Assembly: GCA_035649735.1 (NCBI GenBank)
Contig: DASRIZ010000454.1
Span: 1,519-65,518, forward strand
Source of the DNA: Blastocatellia bacterium
GTDB taxonomy: Bacteria > Acidobacteriota > Blastocatellia > UBA7656
Direction: 5' to 3'
DNA length: 64,000 nt
Numbering within the stretch: position 1 is the stretch's first letter; every line of letters starts with the position of its first letter. The translations under genes and the position numbers were made by a program. The notes beneath the pieces were generated by a model, which had not been told where the DNA came from, did not search any database, and was given only the letters and a program-made list of their open reading frames with translations. Shown piece after piece: positions 3,790 through 47,001 of this stretch.

Positions 3790-4515
3790 ATGAAAAAAAT
3801 TCTGGGAGTAGCGTTTTCTCTTGCAATGATAGCCGGCGGAGCAACGACCGCCTCCGCACAGGATCAGCCACCGCCACCTCCTCCGGGGTTCCAGGGCGGC
3901 GGTGGTCAACGAATGATGCAGTTTCAAATGCCGACTTTTGCTGATCTGGACAAAAACAAAGATAAGAAGATCAGCAAAGACGAAATGCCTTCTCAGTTTC
4001 CACCTCAGATGTTCGACAGAGTGGACACAAACCGCGATGGTTCAATCGATGAAGAGGAGTGGAAGGCGCTGACCACTCAGTTCGGTGCGGGCCGGCCCGG
4101 CGGAGAACGGATGATGGTACAAGGTCCGCGGCTCGGCGAGACCTTGGCCAAACTTCTGGATGGAAACACCGACACCAAAGTGTCACGCGAGGAGTTTGCC
4201 AAGATCGTTACGCTTTTCGACGCACTTGATAAGGACCACAACGGCGAGCTAACAACCGAAGAGATGAATGGTTTCCTTCGGGCGGCGAACGAAGCGTCGA
4301 ATGAGGCGACCGGCGGCGTCGAGGTGGCGGCCCTTTTCGATAAAAACGACAAGAACAAGGACGGCAAAATCACCGCCGAGGAAATGGCCAACGAGCGCGC
4401 GTTCAAAGGGCTGGATCTCAACAAAGACGGCGAGGTTACTCGCTCCGAAGCCGATACAGCGCTAAAGCAACTAAAGAAGGCGAGCGAGGCGAAAAAGACA
4501 GCGCAACCGAACTAA
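3790..4515 (+). CDS. Secreted EF-hand calcium-binding protein (five EF-hand loops)
   Basis: Signal peptide; repeated DxDxDG-type loops (DLDKNKDKKISKDE, DTNRDGSIDEEE, DKDHNGELTTEE, DKNKDGKITAEE, DLNKDGEVTRSE). Confidence 0.7.
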   Translation: MKKILGVAFSLAMIAGGATTASAQDQPPPPPPGFQGGGGQRMMQFQMPTFADLDKNKDKKISKDEMPSQFPPQMFDRVDTNRDGSIDEEEWKALTTQFGAGRPGGERMMVQGPRLGETLAKLLDGNTDTKVSREEFAKIVTLFDALDKDHNGELTTEEMNGFLRAANEASNEATGGVEVAALFDKNDKNKDGKITAEEMANERAFKGLDLNKDGEVTRSEADTALKQLKKASEAKKTAQPN

Positions 4516-34603: not shown

Positions 34604-35407
34604 CTAATCACTAGGGTTTGGGGCTATCCGCATATACGCCTCACGCCAATCGCCGGTGTTGTCCCAAACGAACGGAGTTTGCACGGTGGTCCGCGCGTGG
34701 CTTGCAGTCTCGAGGAGATCGAGCGCGATACCAACGATCGCTCGTTGCATCCCCACATCATCCGGCTTACCGCAAGGGTTGCCGAGAGGAAAATCGGTGA
34801 ACACAAAGCGGGGAACGCCGCACTGCTCGACGATATCTCTAGCCGAGCCAATCACCACGGTTGAAACGCCATTTGTCTCGAGGCGTCGAGCTATCAGACT
34901 CCCGGTCTGATGACAGACCGGTCAGAGCGGTACCACAAGCGCAATATCGACGGCATCCGCGCGGCAAAGTTCAAGGACTGCAGGCGCGTACTCGTCTACG
35001 GTGCGACGCTGACTGAAGTCCGTCGGCACTCCGTAGAATCGTGACGAGAGACTGCCGATCCGACCGCTGGCCGCAAATTCAGCAAGCCGTCTGAGCGGAA
35101 GAAAGGTCTCTACATCGCGTGTGTGCGTAGCCTTTTTATCCCAGGAGCGGTGGTCCGTATACAGTGCGACTGGCGGAGGTTCGGTAGGTGCACCGTAAAC
35201 CGCCGCCACTCGACACGTTTCCTGGTTCAACGCCGCAGTCGTGATTAAAGCGACCCGGCTCTGGCTGAGTGGCTTCGCGAGCGGCGCGAACGGAGCGTCC
35301 TGGTGGTATGCCCAACGGTAAGGATTCTCATAACCGCGGGCGAGATAGTATTCGCGAGACTTGTCGATATAGCTGACGAAAATACGTTGCGCGGAGTCTA
35401 GAGCCAT
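34604..35407 (-). CDS. Candidate selenoprotein (GrdB/PrdB-family-like) with in-frame UGA at 34924-34922 followed by UxxC motif
   Basis: Two same-frame ORFs separated only by TGA; no ATG at start of second ORF; read-through gives ...ALVVPL-U-PVCHQTGS...; perfect hairpin immediately 3' of UGA. Confidence 0.5.
34902..34921 (-). promoter_or_regulatory. SECIS-like hairpin immediately downstream of in-frame UGA
   Basis: UGA-CCGGUCUG-UCAU-CAGACCGG (8-bp perfect stem, 4-nt loop); second weaker hairpin ~+21 to +45. Confidence 0.4.
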
Positions 35408-35410
35408 CGA

Positions 35411-36310
35411 TCAATCCCACGCATCCGCTTTTTTGTAGGCCTCGAACATCTTAAGCACGCCTTCACGACCCGCTATCGACGTGCCATGTTCCAGCCCTAT
35501 GATTCCACGATATCCCGCGTCATAAATGGCCTTAAGGACATTGCGATAGTTCACCTCGCCCGTCCCAGGTTCCTTTCGACCCGGCACATCCCCGGTCTGG
35601 ATGTAGCCGACCAGATCGACATAAGCGCGAAAGTTGTTAATCAGGTTCCCTTCGGTGATTTGGAGATGGTAAAGGTCAAACAGCATTCGCGCATGTTTGC
35701 TGTTGACTGCGGCGATTATCTCAGCCAGCTCATCCGAGTGAGTCATGAAGAACCCTGGATGGTCTATGTGATTCAGCGGCTCGACCACCAAAGCGAGCTC
35801 AGTCTTTTCAAGAAGCTCCGCCGCGCGTTTGAGCCCCTCGATGGCGCTTCGGCGTTGCGAGCTTCGAGAGACTCCGGGTATAGCGGGACCAGTAAGAGTC
35901 GTCACCGAGTGATTTCCGATAACCTTGTGGTACTCGATCGTCTTCTTGATTTCTTGAAGGAACGCATCGCGCTGCTTTGGATCGACCAGACCGGCGGTCT
36001 TCCATCCACCCGGGTTCGCAACGAAAATGCCCATCTCAATACGCAAGCTATCAAGCTTCTTGCGTATCTCTTCCACTTCGTTCAGCGGATGATTGAGTAG
36101 GCCGTTGTATTCCGTCGCGTCGAACCCGTGCTCGGCGATCAGATCCAGTCGTTGAGGAATCGTCAGTTCCTTGTTGAGGATGGTTAGGTGCGGCGCGTAA
36201 CGCAGGTGATACTTCCCGGGTTTGGTTTGTGCAAACCTGTTGGGCGGCAGACCCAACGCAACTGCACCGCTTGCGAGTAGTGTTGTCGTGATGAATCTGC
36301 GCCTTTCCAT
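35411..36310 (-). CDS. Tat-secreted sugar phosphate isomerase/epimerase (xylose-isomerase-like TIM barrel)
   Basis: Twin-arginine MERRRFITTTLLASGAVALG; TIM-barrel AP-endonuclease-2 family blocks; GGAGGAG RBS; stop 3 nt before selenoprotein start. Confidence 0.75.
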   Translation of the reverse strand: MERRRFITTTLLASGAVALGLPPNRFAQTKPGKYHLRYAPHLTILNKELTIPQRLDLIAEHGFDATEYNGLLNHPLNEVEEIRKKLDSLRIEMGIFVANPGGWKTAGLVDPKQRDAFLQEIKKTIEYHKVIGNHSVTTLTGPAIPGVSRSSQRRSAIEGLKRAAELLEKTELALVVEPLNHIDHPGFFMTHSDELAEIIAAVNSKHARMLFDLYHLQITEGNLINNFRAYVDLVGYIQTGDVPGRKEPGTGEVNYRNVLKAIYDAGYRGIIGLEHGTSIAGREGVLKMFEAYKKADAWD

Positions 36311-40244: not shown

Positions 40245-43200
40245 TTACGAGACTGTGGGCAGCGTTAATTCCCCGGCAGCCGCCGTTTTGTCGGCGGGCG
40301 AACGTCCTACTTTCTTCAAGCCTGTTTGACCCAGTGGGACTCTGGCAACAATCTGCGTCCCGTGTGACGGTCGCGAATCAATCGTGATTCTTCCGCCGAC
40401 CAGGCGAAGGCGCTCCCTCATGCCAACCAGCCCGAGGCCGTACTTTAATCGACCGGATTTAACGTCAAATCCGATTCCCGAATCAGAGACACTAAGCGCG
40501 ATCTCCCCTTCCGTCCCAACAAGCTGAATCCGAGCGCTTTGCGCGCCGCTGTGCCTGATTACGTTGTTTAGACACTCCTGCGCAATTCGATAGAGGCAGA
40601 GCGAGATGCCTTGCGGTAGATCATCCGGGACTTGATGGTCGTTGAACTCTATTTTTACTTGATGATGTTGATGAAGTTCGCCACACAGCCCCTTAAGCGC
40701 GCCCACGAGGCCGAGGTGCACCAGGTTCGACGTATGCAAGTTGTAGGACATCCCGTGGATCTCCTTTGATGTTTCATTGATCTGACGCCGCACTGCTATG
40801 AGTTGTTGTTCGAGTGTCTCAGAAGGTGCAGGAAACCCCTGGATGATCTGGTCGAGCTCCACCGAAACGAGTGCCATCCTTTGATTGATGTCATCGTGCA
40901 GCTCTCTGGCAATCCGCGCACGCTCATCTTCCCGCGCCTGGATCAGTTGCCCACTCAAGTTCGCCAGCGCTTGTTCAGCCTCTTTGCGTTCGGTGATGTC
41001 AATGCAGGAGCCTATGTATCCAAGAAATTCTCCGCCCGGCGAGAAGCGGGCAATCCCTGCATCATATACCCAGCAGAACTCGCCGTCCGAGCGGCGTAGC
41101 CTGTATTCCATCTTGAATGGCTGGCGAAGGTCAAACGCCGACGTGTAGGTCACAATGAAGCGCTCGTAATCTTCGGGGTGGACTCCCTCAGTCCAAGCGT
41201 CGCCAAGCTCCTCTTCCATCGTGCGCCCGGTGAAGTTGAGCCACTGCTGGTTGAAGTATGTGCGAAGCTTGTCGACGCCCGAGATCCAAATCATAACGGG
41301 CGCCGTATCAGCCATATTTCTGAATCGCTCTTCGCTCTCGCGCAACGCATCGACTGCCCGTTGGCGCTTGGTGATATCGCGCAGAATGACCGTGTAGAAC
41401 TTTTGACCGTGCAAATCGAGCTGGGAGATGGAGGCTTCCATTGGAAACTCCTCGCCATTGGTGCGGCGTCCAAATATCAGACCCGAAGATCCCATCGATT
41501 TATTCTTTACTCCGGAGTCACTGAAGGCGCGAGTGTGCCGACGATGGGCGTCCCGGAACCGCTCCGGGATAAAGCGATCAAGCGGCTGCAACATAGCTTC
41601 GTTCTCAGTGCAACCAAACATCTTCTGGGCAGCGTCGTTGAACAGCACGATGCGCTGGCTCTCATCAACTGAGATGATAGCGTCCATTGCTGAAGCGACT
41701 ATTCCACCCAACTTCGCCTCATTCTCTTTCACCGCTTCTTCAGCGCGCTTGCGATCGGTGATGTCGCGCACAAGGCTCAGAACCTTGACGCCCTCTGTAA
41801 CGACGATGCGCGCTTCAAACCATCGCTCTTTACCCCTAAGCGGAAGCCTGTACTCTACGGACTGGGGCTCGTTGGTCTCCTTCGCGCGTCGGAAAGAAAT
41901 CAGAAAGGCCTCAGTCAATTCGGCAGGCATCAAGTCCTGCATATTCCTGCCTAGGAACTCCGAAGGAGGAACCAGCAAGTCGTTCGGGTCTTTTGCCTGG
42001 TAGTCAAGAAAGGTGCCGTCCAATGTTTGAAGGAACATCAGATCGGGGATGGCTCGCAGGACTGCCCTGTGTCGTTCTTCACTCTTACGGAGTGACTCAT
42101 CTGCCAGTTTTCGTTGGGTGATATCGATGTTGATGCCAGACAGCTTCAGCGGCTTGCCGTTGGAATCTAGAAAGACCTGAAACCGCGCGAAGATCCAATG
42201 ATTACTCCCGTCCGGCCACGTTATTCGCCATTCTTCTTCAACCGGCGCACCCGTCTTGAGGGCTCGTTGAACGCTTGCAAGAGCCCGCTCACGATCGTCG
42301 TGGTGGACCAGGCGTTCCCACGCAGCTTGAGTTCCGGCGAAGCTGCCGCGCGGTAAGCCGTGCATAGCCTCGAGTTGCCGCGACCAGATGTTGACGCCCG
42401 TCAGGATGTTCCATTCGAAGGTGCCGATGCGGGCCGCTTGTTGCGCGAGCAGTCGCCTCGCCTCGCTCTCGCGCAAGTGCTCTTGAGCACGCTTGCGCAG
42501 CGAGCGGTTTATGACAAGGCCGGCAATGAGTGCGGTTTGGAGTAAGATCACGGACAACCCGGCTATCGCATACCACTTGTACTGTTCCCAAAATGAAGGC
42601 ACGCGAAAGCGCACGATGCTTCCGGGCGGGAGACTGCTCTCGCTAATGCCCCAGCGCTTGAGCTCGCGCCAGTCAAATATTGCGACGCTCGGAATTCCTT
42701 GAGGAGCGATTGCCTCAGGTTTTTCGCCTGACAACACACGCAAGCCCATCTCAGCTGCCCCCACACCGAGCGCTTCAAAACTCATGAGCCTCCCGCCAAC
42801 AATCCCAAGTCCCAGTTGCGCGTCTGTGCTGCCGTACACCGGCGCGCTTGATCCCGGCGAGATTTGACCGAGCACCTCAAGGTTGCCGTAACGATTGCCG
42901 CCATTGTCCTGTACGCTTGAGACAAACATTACTATCGTCTGCGGCGGCAAGGCGGCGAGCGCCTTCTGCTGTTCTGGAATGCTTAAGCCGATGAGGTAGG
43001 AGAATTCGAGCTTGCCTTCAAATGCGCGGAAATCCTTTTGCACTGCAGCCATCCAATACTTGTCCCACTCACTGACGCCGGAAATCACTACTACCCTTTT
43101 GGTTCCGGGATGCAATGCCAGGGCAAGTTCCAGATTGGACGCGTAGTCGGTCTCTCCCCAGACCCCGGTCACATTCGGAACTGGATTGAAGTCGGAAAGG

Positions 43201-43625
43201 TTACTTTGATCGAGAACCAGAAAAACGATAGGAGTGTCGGGCAACAACGCTGGCCGATTTTTCAACAGCAGTTTCAATGCCGGGGGATTAATGGCAAAGA
43301 TCAAGTCGAACTTATTGACCCCATACTTGTGCTGGAACTGCCTTACCAAGTCTTGCTCATAATCTTCCATGTGCGTGCGCACGGCATCCAGATATTCTGA
43401 ATATATTTCGATGGGAACCGGCGAGCCGCTTTGGAGAGTTGATCGCATAGCCCGTTCGAGAAGGACCTGCGCGGGTAAGTGCGATTCATGCGTAAACAGC
43501 ATCAAAATCCTTTTACGCTCTCCGTTGCCCTGTGCAGCCACTGAAGTCGCACACAGCACTATCGCCAGGACGTGGAAGAGAGCCTGGGCCAATATCCCTC
43601 TCAATTCAAACTGTCTTACGCGCAT
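40245..43625 (-). CDS. Sensor histidine kinase: periplasmic binding-protein-like domain, TM, four PAS domains, HisKA_3 + HATPase_c (NarX-type); no receiver
   Basis: Signal/TM; PAS-like repeats with conserved W/R/D patterns; HisKA_3 box ARELHDDINQRMALV; HATPase N/G boxes; starts 7 nt after upstream OMP stop. Confidence 0.8.
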   Translation of the reverse strand: MRVRQFELRGILAQALFHVLAIVLCATSVAAQGNGERKRILMLFTHESHLPAQVLLERAMRSTLQSGSPVPIEIYSEYLDAVRTHMEDYEQDLVRQFQHKYGVNKFDLIFAINPPALKLLLKNRPALLPDTPIVFLVLDQSNLSDFNPVPNVTGVWGETDYASNLELALALHPGTKRVVVISGVSEWDKYWMAAVQKDFRAFEGKLEFSYLIGLSIPEQQKALAALPPQTIVMFVSSVQDNGGNRYGNLEVLGQISPGSSAPVYGSTDAQLGLGIVGGRLMSFEALGVGAAEMGLRVLSGEKPEAIAPQGIPSVAIFDWRELKRWGISESSLPPGSIVRFRVPSFWEQYKWYAIAGLSVILLQTALIAGLVINRSLRKRAQEHLRESEARRLLAQQAARIGTFEWNILTGVNIWSRQLEAMHGLPRGSFAGTQAAWERLVHHDDRERALASVQRALKTGAPVEEEWRITWPDGSNHWIFARFQVFLDSNGKPLKLSGINIDITQRKLADESLRKSEERHRAVLRAIPDLMFLQTLDGTFLDYQAKDPNDLLVPPSEFLGRNMQDLMPAELTEAFLISFRRAKETNEPQSVEYRLPLRGKERWFEARIVVTEGVKVLSLVRDITDRKRAEEAVKENEAKLGGIVASAMDAIISVDESQRIVLFNDAAQKMFGCTENEAMLQPLDRFIPERFRDAHRRHTRAFSDSGVKNKSMGSSGLIFGRRTNGEEFPMEASISQLDLHGQKFYTVILRDITKRQRAVDALRESEERFRNMADTAPVMIWISGVDKLRTYFNQQWLNFTGRTMEEELGDAWTEGVHPEDYERFIVTYTSAFDLRQPFKMEYRLRRSDGEFCWVYDAGIARFSPGGEFLGYIGSCIDITERKEAEQALANLSGQLIQAREDERARIARELHDDINQRMALVSVELDQIIQGFPAPSETLEQQLIAVRRQINETSKEIHGMSYNLHTSNLVHLGLVGALKGLCGELHQHHQVKIEFNDHQVPDDLPQGISLCLYRIAQECLNNVIRHSGAQSARIQLVGTEGEIALSVSDSGIGFDVKSGRLKYGLGLVGMRERLRLVGGRITIDSRPSHGTQIVARVPLGQTGLKKVGRSPADKTAAAGELTLPTVS

Positions 43626-43632
43626 AGAATGA

Positions 43633-46600
43633 CTAAAACTCGAATCTAAGCCCGAACTGAAATTGTCGTGGCGGCGCCGCGCTCACAAACGCGAGCGGCG
43701 CCGTCGGCGGCAGACCGGGAATCCCTTTAAAGTCGAACGGCCCCGTCAGGAATTTCGGATCGCACCCATTGATGAAACCTGGTTGGGCTGTTCCGCAGAC
43801 GACGTCGTTGACGCGAAGGAAGTTGGCGCGGTTAAGCAGGTTCGTCGCTTCGACGATCAACTCCACGTGTGGGCCATCGGAATTCTGATGCCAGTACAAT
43901 CGCTTGCTCACCCTGATATCAACGCTGTAGTAGTTCTCGCCCCGTCCCGAATTGCGCGGAGCATAAAACGGCCGGTCGGTGCTATTCAAATCACCGTTCA
44001 CGTCGCGACCGATGTAAAGATTGAACGGGAATCCGCTGCGCAGAGTAATGATCGGACTGATCGTGATGTCGGCCAGCGCTAGCGCCATCCAATGGTGTGT
44101 GTGGCCTGCCTTGGATGGGCTTTCAAAATTTCCGCTCCCGACAAAACTATGACGCACATCGTAGGCCGAGAGACCTCTATCCACGTAGCGCCGCGTCACC
44201 AGGTATGGCGTCGAGGCGCCGGTGAAGTCCAGCACGTCGTCAAGTCCCTTGCTGTAGGTGTAGCCGGCCCGAAACTGGAATCCTTCGCCGAACCTCTTGA
44301 CCAGAGACGTGGTCAGCCCGTAATAGATCGAGTTGCCCTCAGATGAATGCACAATCTTCTGGGCAAGAGAAGGATCAATCCGCTCAAGCCGCGGGCCGAA
44401 AAGGTCGCTTCCGGGCATACCCGGCACCGGAACGAACTGACCGCTCTCACGGTAATTCGCTTCGAGCGCGATGGGTAGGTGAACTCCGTGGTACATCTGT
44501 AAGGCAATTTCCATCGCGAGGTCACCGCCCAGTTGTTGAGACAGGCCGAGACTGGCTTGAACCGTGTAAGGATTATCGTAGTCCTTAGCAGCTTCCGACA
44601 CTCGGCGGTTCGGCTGGCCGGGGGCCGGCGTGATGCCAAAAGCGCGCACGTCTGCCTCGGTGAGCGCCACGAAGGGGAGCTTTCCCAGGTTGACGCCATA
44701 AGCCCATAGCGCCTGGGTTGACTGTGCGCCGTCTTGCAGCGTCCGCGATTGAAGATTAATGAACTCTCCGCTATCGCGTTGCAGCGTGGCCGCGGATAGA
44801 ACCTGAAGCGACACCGGGGCATAGAAAGTCCCAAACCCGCCACGGATCACCGTTTCACCCTTACCGAACGGATCCCACGAAAAGCCGATGCGTGGAGAGA
44901 GACTGACGTTTCGGTCAAGCGGCTCAGGTTCTCCATCATAATTCAGTCGCGCCCCAAGGTTGAAAGTCAGCCGAGTCGTCGCGTTCCACGAAACTTGTCC
45001 GAATGCGCCCAGATTATGTTGCCAGGCTTGAAAACCCGGGTTCCCGAACCCTTGCTGCCAGATGGACGGAAGCCCCAGGTTGAACGCCTGAAGCGAGGTA
45101 AGAACTGTGTCGGCGGGCGCCGCCAGCTGCCCGGTCAACACATCAAGGTCAGCCGGAGAGAGGGCACGCGCAAGCGGCAGTCCGGCAGCAAACTGGAAGG
45201 TGCCTCCGAATCCGAGTTCGTTGACTAGCTGTGCATCGACGGGCCGGTACGAAACGCCAAATTTGAAATCTTGTGTCCCTCTACTCCAACTCAATATGTC
45301 TTCAAACTGGAATCGCTGCTGCCTCATCACCGTGGGAATTGTTAAGACACGTCCGTAATCAATCAGTCCACTGATGCGAATCAGTGCGCTTTCCGGCGCG
45401 CGCGAGATTTGGCTGTAATCGTCGTCGGCAAACTGAACGCGCAGTTGGTTCACCAAACTGTTGCTGAAAATGTGGCTCCACGTCCCGACCGCCGTGGAGT
45501 CATCAAGAACTTCCAGGATTCCGTTGCTCGGAGCCTCCACGTTATCAAAGCGAAGCAGGTCGTTATCTTCCCGCGCCAGAGTGAAACGCCCGTTGATCAA
45601 ATCTCGCTCGCCCCGGGTGTAATCCAGCCGTGTCGTCCAGTTGTATGTTCGGCTAGGCGCGGTGAATTGACCCTCACTTTGTTGCAGCAGTTGCATGGTG
45701 ATCGGGTGACTCGCACTGGTGAGTGTGGACCGCAATTGCGCGGCGATGCGCCGCGTCGTGGCGCTCGCGATTGGACCGGACTCCAGAGTTTGCAGATACG
45801 CCGACTGCGCCCCGTTCGGTCCCAGCAGAGATGGATTGCTCGTGTAAGAGCGAATCCTGGCAACGTCGTACTTGAGCGCTTCAAATGAGGTGAAGAAGAA
45901 TGCCTGGTTTCTGACGAGCGGGCCGCCGAGAGTAAATCCCGGCGAGACTCTTTGCTCGAACGCCTCATTGCCGCTCCCGTTTAGTGGGTCGCGCGCCGCC
46001 GTTTTCTGAGAGCGATAAAAGACATAGCCCGCGCCGTGAAATGTATTGTTCCCGCTCCTTGTTACGACGTTGATTGCCGTCCCGGCGGTGAATCCGTACT
46101 CGGCGGAGAAGGCATTCCGGTTTACCTGAAACTCCTGCACCGCTTCCACGCTCATGTTTCTTATTCTCAAACTCCCGACCCCGGAATCGTTCTCGCCTCC
46201 GTCAATCGAGAAATAGTTGCTGCGGCCATTGCCGGCGCCGACTGAAAATCCTGAGGTCGGCACCGGGGCCACACGCGTCTGCTGTACGCGGGCCGCCGAC
46301 ACGTCAGCAACACCCGGCAGAGTGAAAACGTAAAAACTGAAATTGCGTGAGAGATTCGGCAGGGTCGCAATCTGCCCACGTTCGACGGTATCGGACTGCT
46401 GCGTGCGCTCCGTTTCGACTAGTGTCGTTGCGGTGCCAATACTCAGCGCATCGGTTAACATGCCGACCTGGAGCCTGATGTCATGAACGCCGACCTGCCC
46501 AACCGTCAGCACCATTTTCGAAACCTGTGGCCGGAACCCTGAAGCCTCGACGCGCAGCTCGTAGGTGCCGGGTTGCAAAAGCGGCACGTGATAGGCGCCT

Positions 46601-47001
46601 TGGTCATCCGTCTTGACGCTGCGCACGACTCCTCGCCCGGCGTTTGTCACGGTGATGCTCGCGCCGCTCACTGCGGCGTCGGACTGATCCGTTACCTTGC
46701 CTTTGAGGGTTGAGTGCGCGACGTCAGCCTGGGCTAGTACGGAAAGCGTTTCCGCGTTGGCTGTTAACCATTGTGAGCCAGCCAAGGCAATCAGCAAGGC
46801 CGATTGTCTCGTTCGAGGGGTAGCAGGGAAACGCGGATTGTCCGAAGGAAAGATGAGCTTTTGAGCCGCCTCCCTGGAAGCAATGATCGGTAATTGAAGC
46901 GGCAATAAAAACAACAAGCCCGAAATGAGTTGTAGCGGCACACTCATCGTAAGCGTCCCTGCCGAAAGACTGGTAGTGAGGCAGTATGACCGCCTAATCA
47001 T
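43633..47001 (-). CDS. TonB-dependent-receptor-like outer membrane protein with carboxypeptidase-regulatory-like N-terminal domain
   Basis: CarbopepD_reg-like segment (GKVTDQSDAAVSGASITV...); ~1100 aa beta-barrel; C-terminal ...FGLRFEF terminal Phe. Confidence 0.7.
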   Translation of the reverse strand: MIRRSYCLTTSLSAGTLTMSVPLQLISGLLFLLPLQLPIIASREAAQKLIFPSDNPRFPATPRTRQSALLIALAGSQWLTANAETLSVLAQADVAHSTLKGKVTDQSDAAVSGASITVTNAGRGVVRSVKTDDQGAYHVPLLQPGTYELRVEASGFRPQVSKMVLTVGQVGVHDIRLQVGMLTDALSIGTATTLVETERTQQSDTVERGQIATLPNLSRNFSFYVFTLPGVADVSAARVQQTRVAPVPTSGFSVGAGNGRSNYFSIDGGENDSGVGSLRIRNMSVEAVQEFQVNRNAFSAEYGFTAGTAINVVTRSGNNTFHGAGYVFYRSQKTAARDPLNGSGNEAFEQRVSPGFTLGGPLVRNQAFFFTSFEALKYDVARIRSYTSNPSLLGPNGAQSAYLQTLESGPIASATTRRIAAQLRSTLTSASHPITMQLLQQSEGQFTAPSRTYNWTTRLDYTRGERDLINGRFTLAREDNDLLRFDNVEAPSNGILEVLDDSTAVGTWSHIFSNSLVNQLRVQFADDDYSQISRAPESALIRISGLIDYGRVLTIPTVMRQQRFQFEDILSWSRGTQDFKFGVSYRPVDAQLVNELGFGGTFQFAAGLPLARALSPADLDVLTGQLAAPADTVLTSLQAFNLGLPSIWQQGFGNPGFQAWQHNLGAFGQVSWNATTRLTFNLGARLNYDGEPEPLDRNVSLSPRIGFSWDPFGKGETVIRGGFGTFYAPVSLQVLSAATLQRDSGEFINLQSRTLQDGAQSTQALWAYGVNLGKLPFVALTEADVRAFGITPAPGQPNRRVSEAAKDYDNPYTVQASLGLSQQLGGDLAMEIALQMYHGVHLPIALEANYRESGQFVPVPGMPGSDLFGPRLERIDPSLAQKIVHSSEGNSIYYGLTTSLVKRFGEGFQFRAGYTYSKGLDDVLDFTGASTPYLVTRRYVDRGLSAYDVRHSFVGSGNFESPSKAGHTHHWMALALADITISPIITLRSGFPFNLYIGRDVNGDLNSTDRPFYAPRNSGRGENYYSVDIRVSKRLYWHQNSDGPHVELIVEATNLLNRANFLRVNDVVCGTAQPGFINGCDPKFLTGPFDFKGIPGLPPTAPLAFVSAAPPRQFQFGLRFEF

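What the first reader, a model, noticed from the sequence alone, without database searches (positions are those of the whole stretch)
34604..35407. Candidate selenoprotein: in-frame UGA followed directly by a perfect hairpin and a U-x-x-C motif
ORFs 34922-35407 and 34604-34858 are in the same frame and separated only by a TGA. The downstream ORF has no ATG start; the ORF track begins it with GTG. Read-through gives ...VDIALVVPL-U-PVCHQTGSLIARRLETNGVSTVV..., a Sec-x-x-Cys redox-type motif. The UGA is immediately followed by CCGGUCUG-UCAU-CAGACCGG, an 8-bp perfect stem, with a second hairpin about 20 nt later. This is the arrangement expected for a bacterial SECIS inside the coding sequence. The N-terminal region is reminiscent of the glycine/betaine/sarcosine/D-proline reductase selenoprotein-B family, but I cannot confirm that without a search. 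The gene is translationally coupled (3-nt spacer) to a Tat-secreted sugar-phosphate-isomerase-like gene.
Basis: partly seen in the sequence, partly recalled or inferred. Interest (0 to 1): 0.6.

Follow-up and report, generated by a model that had tools for sequence, protein, structure and literature searches.

The report
Mis-split PrdB-like selenoprotein gene
Two adjacent "hypothetical" ORFs are really one gene for a selenocysteine-containing relative of proline reductase subunit PrdB.

Summary
On the minus strand, 35407-34604 is one reading frame interrupted only by TGA at 34924-34922, which gives ...VPL-U-PVCHQT... (U-x-x-C).

Evidence that the TGA is a selenocysteine codon:
- The TGA aligns exactly with Cys in full-length homologues (PL-C-PVCHQT) and with the Sec/Cys site of Clostridium PrdB (27% identity, E 6e-30).
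- In 160 related loci from metagenomes and species genomes, 155 carry TGA at this codon, with the frame conserved downstream. The taxa include Blastocatellia, Binatia, Chloroflexota, Myxococcota, Syntrophales, Burkholderiales and Spirochaetales.
- Window-versus-relative dN/dS downstream of the TGA is about 0.1-0.2.

This is therefore a selenoprotein gene that gene callers split into 161 aa and 84 aa products.

However, it is largely dictated by the PVCHQT peptide, also forms in Cys homologues, and fails the published bacterial SECIS rules. The conserved element is the overlapping hairpin CAGAC-[CGUGA]-GUCUG (CGGGA in the window), 34911-34893. It is invariant at synonymous sites in 135 distinct Sec forms, disrupted in most Cys forms, and meets all four rules.

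"Proline reductase PrdB" UxxC selenoproteins were catalogued from metagenomes in 2005-2008, so this is a new member of a known kind. No PrdA partner or conserved neighbour was found. The selenocysteine machinery could not be checked.

The parts
34604..35407 (-). Complete PrdB-like selenoprotein gene: ATG 35407, Sec-UGA 34924-34922, stop TAG 34606-34604. The product is 267 residues with U at position 162.
   Evidence: Translation. NCBIfam TIGR04483 match over residues 39-247, E 4.6e-30. Full-length Cys homologues. Gene callers split it into 161 aa and 84 aa products.
34922..34924 (-). In-frame UGA read as selenocysteine (residue 162).
   Evidence: It aligns with Cys in full-length homologues and with Cys151 of C. 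sporogenes PrdB. TGA is present at this codon in 77/80 metagenome loci and 78/80 species-genome loci.
34913..34915 (-). Codon of Cys165, the resolving cysteine of the U-x-x-C-H motif.
   Evidence: P163, V164, C165, H166 and Q167 are invariant in 50 aligned family members. The motif aligns with C-G-T-C-H of PrdB.
34893..34911 (-). Proposed SECIS hairpin (hairpin B): AUCAGAC-[CGGGA]-GUCUGAU, a 7-bp stem. The loop is 34904-34900. Outer pairs G-C and U-G extend it to 34914-34890. There are 17 nt between the UGA and the loop.
   Evidence: RNAalifold consensus of 60 Sec forms. 95.6% of cells paired. Codon entropy of 0.06-0.23 bits at CAG ACC GTG AGT CTG in 135 Sec forms, against 0.9-2.2 bits in the flanks, while most of the 10 Cys forms use AGC and/or CTC/CTA. 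Folds at -9.4 kcal/mol once the first nucleotides are removed. Meets all four bSECIS constraints of PMC13188914.
34902..34921 (-). It is mutually exclusive with hairpin B because both use CAGAC.
   Evidence: It is the minimum-free-energy fold in the window. Pair 4-23 forms in 1 of 60 sequences, pair 6-21 is broken in 20 of 60, and pair 9-18 is broken in 10 of 60. It also folds in Cys forms L039 and L166.
34877..34890 (-). It is not conserved.
   Evidence: Only 65.3% of cells are paired across 60 Sec forms, and three of the five pairs are frequently broken.
35411..36310 (-). Upstream xylose-isomerase-like TIM-barrel gene with an RRxF N-terminus. Its TGA stop lies 3 nt before the ATG of the selenoprotein gene and in the same frame. 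This neighbour is specific to the lineage.
   Evidence: PF01261, E 3.6e-33. Found next to the gene only in the same-species contigs L001-L003 and L167. Same frame shown.

Best explanation
35407-34604 (minus strand) is a single gene for a 267-residue selenoprotein of the PrdB/GrdB ("selenoprotein B") superfamily. It belongs to a stand-alone PrdB-like subfamily that is widespread in soil and sediment bacteria.

Recoding (inferred from comparative data and the general bacterial mechanism):
- UGA at 34924-34922 is read as selenocysteine.
- SelB-GTP-Sec-tRNA(Sec) is recruited by a short hairpin that starts 10 nt after the UGA. The stem is AUCAGAC/GUCUGAU and the loop is CGGGA; the family consensus loop is CGUGA.
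- When the ribosome reaches the UGA, its mRNA channel covers that upstream arm. CAGAC is then free to form the conserved downstream hairpin.

Enzyme (inferred by homology to PrdB):
- The Sec162-x-x-Cys165-His166 centre acts as a selenolate nucleophile.
- The intermediate is resolved by Cys165 into a selenenyl-sulfide, which a thiol system then re-reduces.
- The substrate is unknown. No PrdA-type pyruvoyl partner or any conserved neighbour is present, so D-proline reductase activity should not be assumed.
For: Shown:
- One frame, with U-x-x-C.
- A single PrdB-profile match spans the UGA.
- BLASTP to C. sporogenes PrdB gives 27% identity over 213 residues, E 6e-30, and the UGA codon aligns to its C-G-T-C-H cysteine.
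- Cys stands at this column in all full-length homologues.
- TGA occurs at this codon in 77/80 and 78/80 related loci from many phyla, with the frame conserved after it.
- For the 105 codons after the UGA, dN is about 0.08-0.18 and dS about 0.6-2.2 between the window and its relatives. This dN matches that of the N-terminal part.
- TGA is the commonest ordinary stop in the window (13 of 30 genes), so there is no code reassignment.

SECIS:
- In 135 distinct Sec forms the five codons CAG ACC GTG AGT CTG are nearly invariant, including synonymous sites. Most of the ten Cys forms use AGC for Ser and/or CTC/CTA for Leu, and vary residue +7.
- RNAalifold selects this hairpin, and 95.6% of cells are paired.
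- It satisfies all four bSECIS model constraints: a 5-nt loop, G at loop position 2 followed by G or U, 17 nt of spacing, and -9.4 kcal/mol.
- The window's variant is shared as far as a 96%-identical relative's contig (L167) reads: loop base GUG to GGG and His codon CAU. That contig ends before the 3' arm. The AUA partner that completes the C-G to U-A closing-pair change is seen in the window and in the same-species contigs L001-L003.

Literature: "Proline reductase PrdB", motif UxxC, is among the most abundant selenoprotein families in the Sargasso Sea and GOS metagenomes. It is also listed in Anaeromyxobacter and Geobacter (PMC1088965, PMC2398784, PMC1794560).
Against: - No selA, selB, selD or tRNA-Sec was found in the 64-kb window or in about 17 kb of extra flank. 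This is uninformative for a genome of several Mb, but it means the machinery is unverified for this organism.
- The hairpin stems are invariant, so there is essentially no covariation. Support is sequence conservation rather than compensatory change; only one double change is seen, and it is in the window itself.
- The window's loop is CGGGA rather than the consensus CGUGA.
- In the naked RNA the competing 8-bp hairpin is much more stable.
- The protein scores far below the curated cut-offs of TIGR04483 (104.8 against 300) and PF07355 (12.8 against 22).
- No incorporation of selenium has been demonstrated for any member, as far as I could find.
Confidence: 0.85

Rival explanations
1. The reader's 8-bp hairpin immediately 3' of the UGA (34921-34902) is itself the functional SECIS in this lineage.
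For: It is the dominant fold of the free RNA. The Val-to-Gly change (GUG to GGG), found only in the window lineage, lengthens it from 7 to 8 bp.
Against: - The loop UCAU has no G, and the loop begins 8 nt after the UGA. This fails two of the four bSECIS constraints.
- Pairs 6-21 and 9-18 vary without compensation in homologues.
- The same hairpin forms in Cys homologues, which need no SECIS.
- From general knowledge of ribosome footprints, these nucleotides would lie inside the mRNA channel when the UGA is in the A site.
Confidence: 0.07
2. The TGA is a true stop or nonsense mutation. The locus is then a pseudogene, or two separate small genes of 161 aa and a GTG-started 84 aa.
For: Automated gene callers annotate it this way. 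The Sec machinery is unverified for this genome.
Against: - The TGA sits at the same codon in 155 of 160 loci across many phyla.
- The downstream part is under purifying selection with no frame disruption.
- Cys homologues are single polypeptides of about 290 aa.
- The 21 codons between the TGA and the GTG carry the most conserved motif of the family, PVCHQT.
Confidence: 0.04
3. The UGA is read through without selenium, for example by near-cognate Trp or Cys tRNA, with the hairpin acting as a generic read-through stimulator.
For: The machinery is unverified. The UGA-C context is known to be leaky (general knowledge).
Against: - The position is the catalytic Sec/Cys of PrdB-type enzymes. Trp there would inactivate the enzyme.
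- The hairpin fits the SelB-type bSECIS model.
- The same family is listed among selenoproteins of Sec-decoding organisms (PMC1794560).
Confidence: 0.04

Closest known systems
"Proline reductase PrdB" UxxC selenoprotein family catalogued from metagenomes and some Deltaproteobacteria (Zhang, Fomenko and Gladyshev 2005, PMC1088965; Zhang and Gladyshev 2008, PMC2398784; Zhang et al. 2006, PMC1794560)
   Same: - It has the same UxxC motif and the same mixture of Sec and Cys forms.
- It occurs in non-clostridial environmental bacteria, including Myxococcota and Geobacter-type organisms.
- It is assigned by weak similarity to pfam07355/PrdB.
- The window gene is most simply a soil Blastocatellia member of this catalogue entry.
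   Different: I could not compare sequences from those papers directly, because no sequences were held. Identity of the two sets is therefore inferred from motif, annotation and taxa. Those papers call it proline reductase. The loci examined here show no PrdA and no conserved partner.
PrdB, selenoprotein subunit of clostridial D-proline reductase (TIGR04483; Kabisch et al. 1999, cited in PMC1088965)
   Same: - It is homologous over nearly its whole length: profile positions 19-233 of 238, and 27% identity to C. sporogenes PrdB.
- The Sec/Cys-x-x-Cys-His motif is at the aligned position.
- The following helix and the strand ...GIPT(V/I)... are conserved.
   Different: - It scores 104.8 bits against the 300-bit family cut-off.
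- It has an extra, highly conserved N-terminal segment of about 38 residues (SYIDKSREYY...NPYRWA).
- The GFMGGGG region is replaced by YGVPT(D/E)(F/Y)SQR.
- No prdA, prdC or prdDEF genes are nearby.
- Its hosts are largely non-clostridial soil and sediment lineages.
GrdB/GrdF/GrdH, substrate-specific selenoprotein B of glycine, sarcosine and betaine reductases (PF07355, TIGR01918)
   Same: It is distantly homologous to their C-terminal part, which carries the UxxC site (E 3e-10 to 7e-7).
   Different: It lacks their N-terminal half of about 190 residues and scores below all cut-offs. No grdA or grdE genes are nearby.
Bacterial SECIS consensus model (bSECISearch model as summarised in PMC13188914) and the E. 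coli fdhF SECIS
   Same: A small hairpin lies inside the coding sequence. The loop has G followed by G or U in its first positions, there are 17 nt between the UGA and the loop, and the stability is below -7.5 kcal/mol.
   Different: - It is unusually short.
- It is unusually invariant in sequence across many phyla.
- In many members it competes with an upstream alternative pairing that the peptide sequence imposes.

Membership tests
Bacterial selenoprotein gene (Sec-decoding UGA) | In-frame UGA aligned with Cys in homologues | tested here: met
   PL-C-PVCHQT in all full-length homologues. The UGA aligns with Cys151 of C. sporogenes PrdB.
Bacterial selenoprotein gene (Sec-decoding UGA) | UGA and downstream reading frame conserved among relatives, with the downstream part under purifying selection | tested here: met
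   TGA in 77/80 and 78/80 loci. dN/dS is about 0.1-0.2 after the UGA.
Bacterial selenoprotein gene (Sec-decoding UGA) | SECIS hairpin meeting the bSECIS model: 3-9 nt loop, 4-16 bp stem, G in the first two loop positions, 16-37 nt from the UGA, MFE <= -7.5 kcal/mol | tested here: met
   Hairpin B at 34911-34893 has a 5-nt loop CGGGA, a 7-bp stem, 17 nt of spacing and -9.4 kcal/mol. Hairpin A fails the loop-G and spacing criteria.
Bacterial selenoprotein gene (Sec-decoding UGA) | Genome encodes selA, selB, selC (tRNA-Sec) and selD | not testable with these tools
   None is present in the 64-kb window or in about 17 kb of extra flank.
Bacterial selenoprotein gene (Sec-decoding UGA) | Selenium incorporated in the protein | not testable with these tools
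   This requires 75Se labelling or mass spectrometry.
D-proline reductase subunit PrdB (NCBIfam TIGR04483, equivalog) | Score at or above the curated cut-off of 300 bits | tested here: not met
   104.8 bits, E 4.6e-30.
D-proline reductase subunit PrdB (NCBIfam TIGR04483, equivalog) | Sec/Cys-x-x-Cys-His active-site motif at the homologous position | tested here: met
   BLASTP alignment with P0216: LCPVCHQ aligns with GCGTCHR.
D-proline reductase subunit PrdB (NCBIfam TIGR04483, equivalog) | Encoded with PrdA (pyruvoyl proprotein) and other prd genes | tested here: not met
   - The window's neighbours are a TIM-barrel protein, ApbE, an FGE-sulfatase protein, a GFO/IDH/MocA oxidoreductase, a patatin and an S8 peptidase.
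- No neighbour family recurs widely among 160 loci. The best non-artefact cluster is acyl-CoA dehydrogenase-like, in 22 loci.
- PrdA was not searched for with its own profile.
Glycine/sarcosine/betaine reductase selenoprotein B (Pfam PF07355 GRDB) | Score at or above the gathering threshold of 22 bits | tested here: not met
   12.8 bits, E 0.074, and only residues 84-154 match. The Bradyrhizobium Cys homologue P0049 has no Pfam hit at all.

The most novel reading that the evidence does not exclude
The stand-alone PrdB-like proteins may be a functionally distinct, still uncharacterised selenoenzyme family rather than D-proline reductases.

- They have no PrdA partner, no Pfam model and no solved or Foldseek-detectable structural relative.
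- They carry a conserved extra N-terminal segment.
- They occur in at least seven bacterial lineages, including aerobic soil Acidobacteria.

Their almost invariant 15-nt SECIS also overlaps an alternative hairpin imposed by the peptide. Ribosome-driven refolding from hairpin A to hairpin B could therefore be part of how Sec insertion is timed.
Probability: 0.5. Interest if true: 0.45.

Novelty: new member of a known kind. Interest (0 to 1): 0.3.

Why it matters
- Annotation. In the source assembly, and in the many related contigs examined, this gene is called as a truncated hypothetical protein of 161-162 aa, followed in the window's own lineage by a small orphan ORF. Recognising the UGA as Sec restores a 267-aa enzyme and flags the organism, a Blastocatellia-type soil bacterium, as a probable selenium user.
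- SECIS. The comparative data give a very clean, family-specific signature, CAGACCGUGAGUCUG starting 12 nt after the UGA. This signature could be used to find and correctly annotate this family in metagenomes. It also shows how a conspicuous perfect hairpin can be a coding by-product rather than the signal.
- Biology. The biochemical role of PrdB-like selenoproteins outside Stickland-fermenting clostridia remains open. Nothing here changes the understanding of Sec decoding itself.

Tried and rejected
- Conserved neighbourhood. tblastn-style comparison of the six window neighbours against 160 loci matched only same-species contigs. All-against-all clustering of flanking ORFs gave no widely recurrent partner. 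The two largest clusters were artefacts: antisense ORFs and the gene's own C-terminal half. The only local regularity is a secreted PIG-L deacetylase upstream in the closest clade.
- Covariation. Neither hairpin shows meaningful compensatory change, because the stems are invariant. The argument therefore rests on synonymous-site conservation and on the Sec-versus-Cys contrast.
- Known RNA families. No Rfam family reaches its gathering score anywhere in the window, and ARAGORN finds no tRNA or tRNA-Sec.
- Sec machinery. It was not found among the window's genes or in the contig flanks.
- Other read-through candidates. A mechanical scan of the window found no other convincing selenoprotein candidate. 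The EF-hand protein with a weak \"deiodinase family\" hit has no room for an extension.
- Genome-wide UGA reassignment is rejected, because 13 of 30 supported genes end in TGA.

Full report
**1. What is in the sequence**

Read on the minus strand, 35407-34604 is one open frame interrupted once, by TGA at 34924-34922.
- The ORF list shows the two pieces as 34922-35407 (161 aa, ATG start) and 34604-34858 (84 aa).
- The second piece starts at an internal GTG only because the tool begins ORFs at the first start codon after a stop.
- Read-through gives 267 residues with ...DIALVVPL-U-PVCHQTGSLIARRLETNGVSTVVIG..., a U-x-x-C motif.
- The 20 nt after the UGA form CCGGUCUG-UCAU-CAGACCGG. The 60 nt from the UGA fold at -26.7 kcal/mol, and none of 200 dinucleotide shuffles folds as well.
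- The upstream gene (35411-36310) is a xylose-isomerase-like TIM barrel (PF01261, E 3.6e-33). It has an RRRF-type N-terminus and ends 3 nt before the ATG.

**2. One protein, with Cys in homologues at the UGA**

- NCBIfam places residues 39-247, across the UGA, on positions 19-233 of the 238-position PrdB model TIGR04483. The E-value is 4.6e-30, but 104.8 bits is well below the 300-bit cut-off. Matches to the betaine, sarcosine and glycine reductase B models are weaker. Pfam GRDB is sub-threshold.
- A database search returned 2327 relatives. Proteins of about 290 residues, annotated "glycine reductase" or "PrdB" (for example in Bradyrhizobium), have PL-C-PVCHQT with Cys exactly at the UGA column.
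- Proteins of 161-162 residues, 77-100% identical to the window, all stop at ...VPL.
- The 100%-identical entry is named as a hypothetical protein of a Blastocatellia MAG. The source contig is 94 kb, and gene callers split the gene into 161 aa and 84 aa.
- A direct BLASTP against bona fide C. sporogenes PrdB gives 27% identity over 213 residues (E 6e-30). LCPVCHQ aligns to GCGTCHR, which is the Sec/Cys-x-x-Cys-His site.

**3. The UGA is conserved, and the downstream part is translated**

- Of 80 related metagenome loci, 77 have TGA at this codon and 3 have TGC.
- Of 80 loci from species-representative genomes, 78 have TGA and 2 have TGC. The taxa labelled in those records include Blastocatellia, Binatia, Anaerolineae, Dehalococcoidia, Myxococcota, Syntrophales and other Deltaproteobacteria, Burkholderiales and Spirochaetales.
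- In every case the frame continues into ...PVCHQT(V)SL(V)ARHLE.NG..TVV.GSA(R/K)D....
- Between the window and relatives at 70-80% identity, the 99-105 codons after the UGA have dN 0.08-0.18 and dS 0.6-2.2. This dN equals that of the N-terminal part.
- The short C-terminus of the window protein is typical of its clade. More distant members carry a tail of about 25 residues with an ERRxxQ motif.
- TGA is also the commonest ordinary stop codon in the window (13 of 30 family-supported genes), so the genetic code is standard.

A pseudogene or two-gene reading is therefore untenable.

**4. Which hairpin is the SECIS**

- Its outermost pair exists only in the window.
- The Pro3-Thr3 pair is broken in 20 of 60 sequences, and the Val3-Gln3 pair in 10 of 60, with no compensation.
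- Six of its eight pairs are fixed by the codons of P-V-C-H-Q-T-G.
- The same hairpin folds in Cys homologues L039 and L166, which need no SECIS.

RNAalifold instead selects hairpin B, CAGAC-[CGUGA]-GUCUG, extended by A-U and C-G/U-G pairs. 95.6% of its cells are paired.

The decisive evidence is synonymous-site conservation.
- In 135 distinct Sec forms, codon entropy is 0.06-0.23 bits at the five codons CAG ACC GTG AGT CTG. The flanking codons have 0.9-2.2 bits.
- In the ten Cys forms, Ser is AGC in 8 of 9 cases, Leu is CTC, CTG or CTA, and residue +7 varies (T, A, V, M or I).

Hairpin B also meets all four constraints of the published bacterial SECIS model.
- That model requires a 3-9 nt loop on a 4-16 bp stem, G in the first two loop positions (usually followed by G or U), 16-37 nt between the UGA and the loop, and MFE <= -7.5 kcal/mol (PMC13188914).
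- In the window, the loop CGGGA is at 34904-34900, the stem is 7 bp, the spacing is 17 nt and the energy is -9.4 kcal/mol.
- Hairpin A fails the loop-G and spacing constraints.

The two hairpins share the CAGAC arm and so cannot coexist. I infer, but have not shown, that the ribosome approaching the UGA unwinds hairpin A and lets hairpin B form for SelB.

The window lineage has a variant.
- The loop U is replaced by G (Val to Gly), and the closing C-G pair is replaced by U-A (CAU...AUA).
- A 96%-identical relative (L167) shares the GGG loop codon and the CAU His codon as far as its contig reads. That contig ends before the 3' arm.
- The AUA partner is seen in the window and in the same-species contigs L001-L003.

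**5. Context and function**

- The window's neighbours are the TIM-barrel protein, ApbE, an FGE-sulfatase protein, a GFO/IDH/MocA oxidoreductase, a patatin and an S8 peptidase. They accompany the gene only in same-species contigs.
- In the closest other clade the upstream gene is a signal-peptide PIG-L deacetylase. Elsewhere the neighbours are heterogeneous.
- No PrdA-like or other prd/grd gene was seen.
- No solved structure exists for this superfamily by sequence. A confident AlphaFold2 model of a Cys homologue has no significant PDB match.

By homology, the protein is a Sec/Cys redox enzyme of the selenoprotein-B type: selenolate attack, a Se-S intermediate with Cys165, and thiol-dependent re-reduction. 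Its substrate is unknown. It fails the membership tests for PrdB proper and for GrdB.

**6. What is known already**

- "Proline reductase (PrdB)" with motif UxxC was the third most abundant selenoprotein family in the Sargasso Sea data (42 Sec forms). It had 235 Sec and 110 Cys members in GOS (PMC1088965, PMC2398784).
- "Proline reductase" is listed among the selenoproteins of Anaeromyxobacter dehalogenans and Geobacter uraniumreducens (PMC1794560).
- The window gene is most simply a soil Blastocatellia member of that family. It is a new member of a known kind, mis-annotated because of the UGA.

**7. Limits**

- The selenocysteine machinery of this genome could not be examined. It is absent from the window and from about 17 kb of further flank, which says little.
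- Support for hairpin B is conservation, not covariation.
- Identity with the published metagenomic "PrdB" set is inferred from motif, annotation and taxa, not from direct sequence comparison.

**Verdict.** The finding is ordinary in kind but cleanly resolved. Interest 0.3.

Noticed in passing
window 35405-35413 (minus strand): The TGA stop of the upstream TIM-barrel gene is in the same reading frame as the selenoprotein gene (...W-D-TGA-TCG-ATG...). Read-through of that stop would fuse the two proteins. This is probably coincidence, with a 1 in 3 chance.
   Followed up: partly
L004, L008, L010, L011, L013, L015, L017, L019, L021, L023, L035, L082, L086 (about 0.5-1.4 kb upstream of the gene, same strand): In the closest other Sec clade, the gene directly upstream is a PIG-L family deacetylase of about 273 aa with a signal peptide (PF02585, E 2.5e-27), in place of the TIM-barrel gene. 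Both alternative upstream neighbours look secreted, whereas the PrdB-like protein has no signal peptide.
   Followed up: partly
proteins P0122 and P0176: Database entries of canonical PrdB carry W (TAGWGTCH, presumably UGA translated as Trp by a gene caller) or R (Spiroplasma alleghenense, TAGRGTCH) at the Sec/Cys position. An Arg at the catalytic site in a genus that reads UGA as Trp is odd.
   Followed up: no
L093:6477-6540 and L138:717-780: Two Sec-form members (Promineifilaceae and Anaerolineae MAGs) depart from the otherwise invariant SECIS string: CAG TCT GCC AGT TTG and CAG ACC GCC AGT TTG. L138 keeps the stem through G-U pairs. L093 may use a different structure.
   Followed up: no
window 34607-34921 compared with 34925-35407: Synonymous divergence from relatives is about half as high downstream of the UGA (dS 0.6-0.85) as upstream (dS 1.5-2.0), at equal dN. 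The 15-nt SECIS explains only a small part of this.
   Followed up: no
L169:1081-3380: The contig of the closest Cys homologue (P0001) holds two tandem 291-aa copies of the gene. Each copy is followed by a 57-aa fragment with a faint ALS_ss_C hit. This is either a recent tandem duplication or an assembly repeat.
   Followed up: no
window 3790-4515 (+): A secreted EF-hand protein has sub-threshold matches to NCBIfam "deiodinase family protein" (NF038285, E 2.4e-13, 50 bits against a 250-bit cut-off) and to lanmodulin/XopAW calcium-binding models. There is no room downstream for a read-through extension.
   Followed up: partly
window 40245-43625 and 43633-47001 (minus strand); L161:18135-18476: Close to the locus are a multi-PAS histidine kinase fused to an ABC-type substrate-binding domain, a large CarboxypepD_reg/OMP beta-barrel (TonB-dependent-like) protein, and a YoeB-type toxin gene. 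None has an evident link to the selenoprotein.
   Followed up: no
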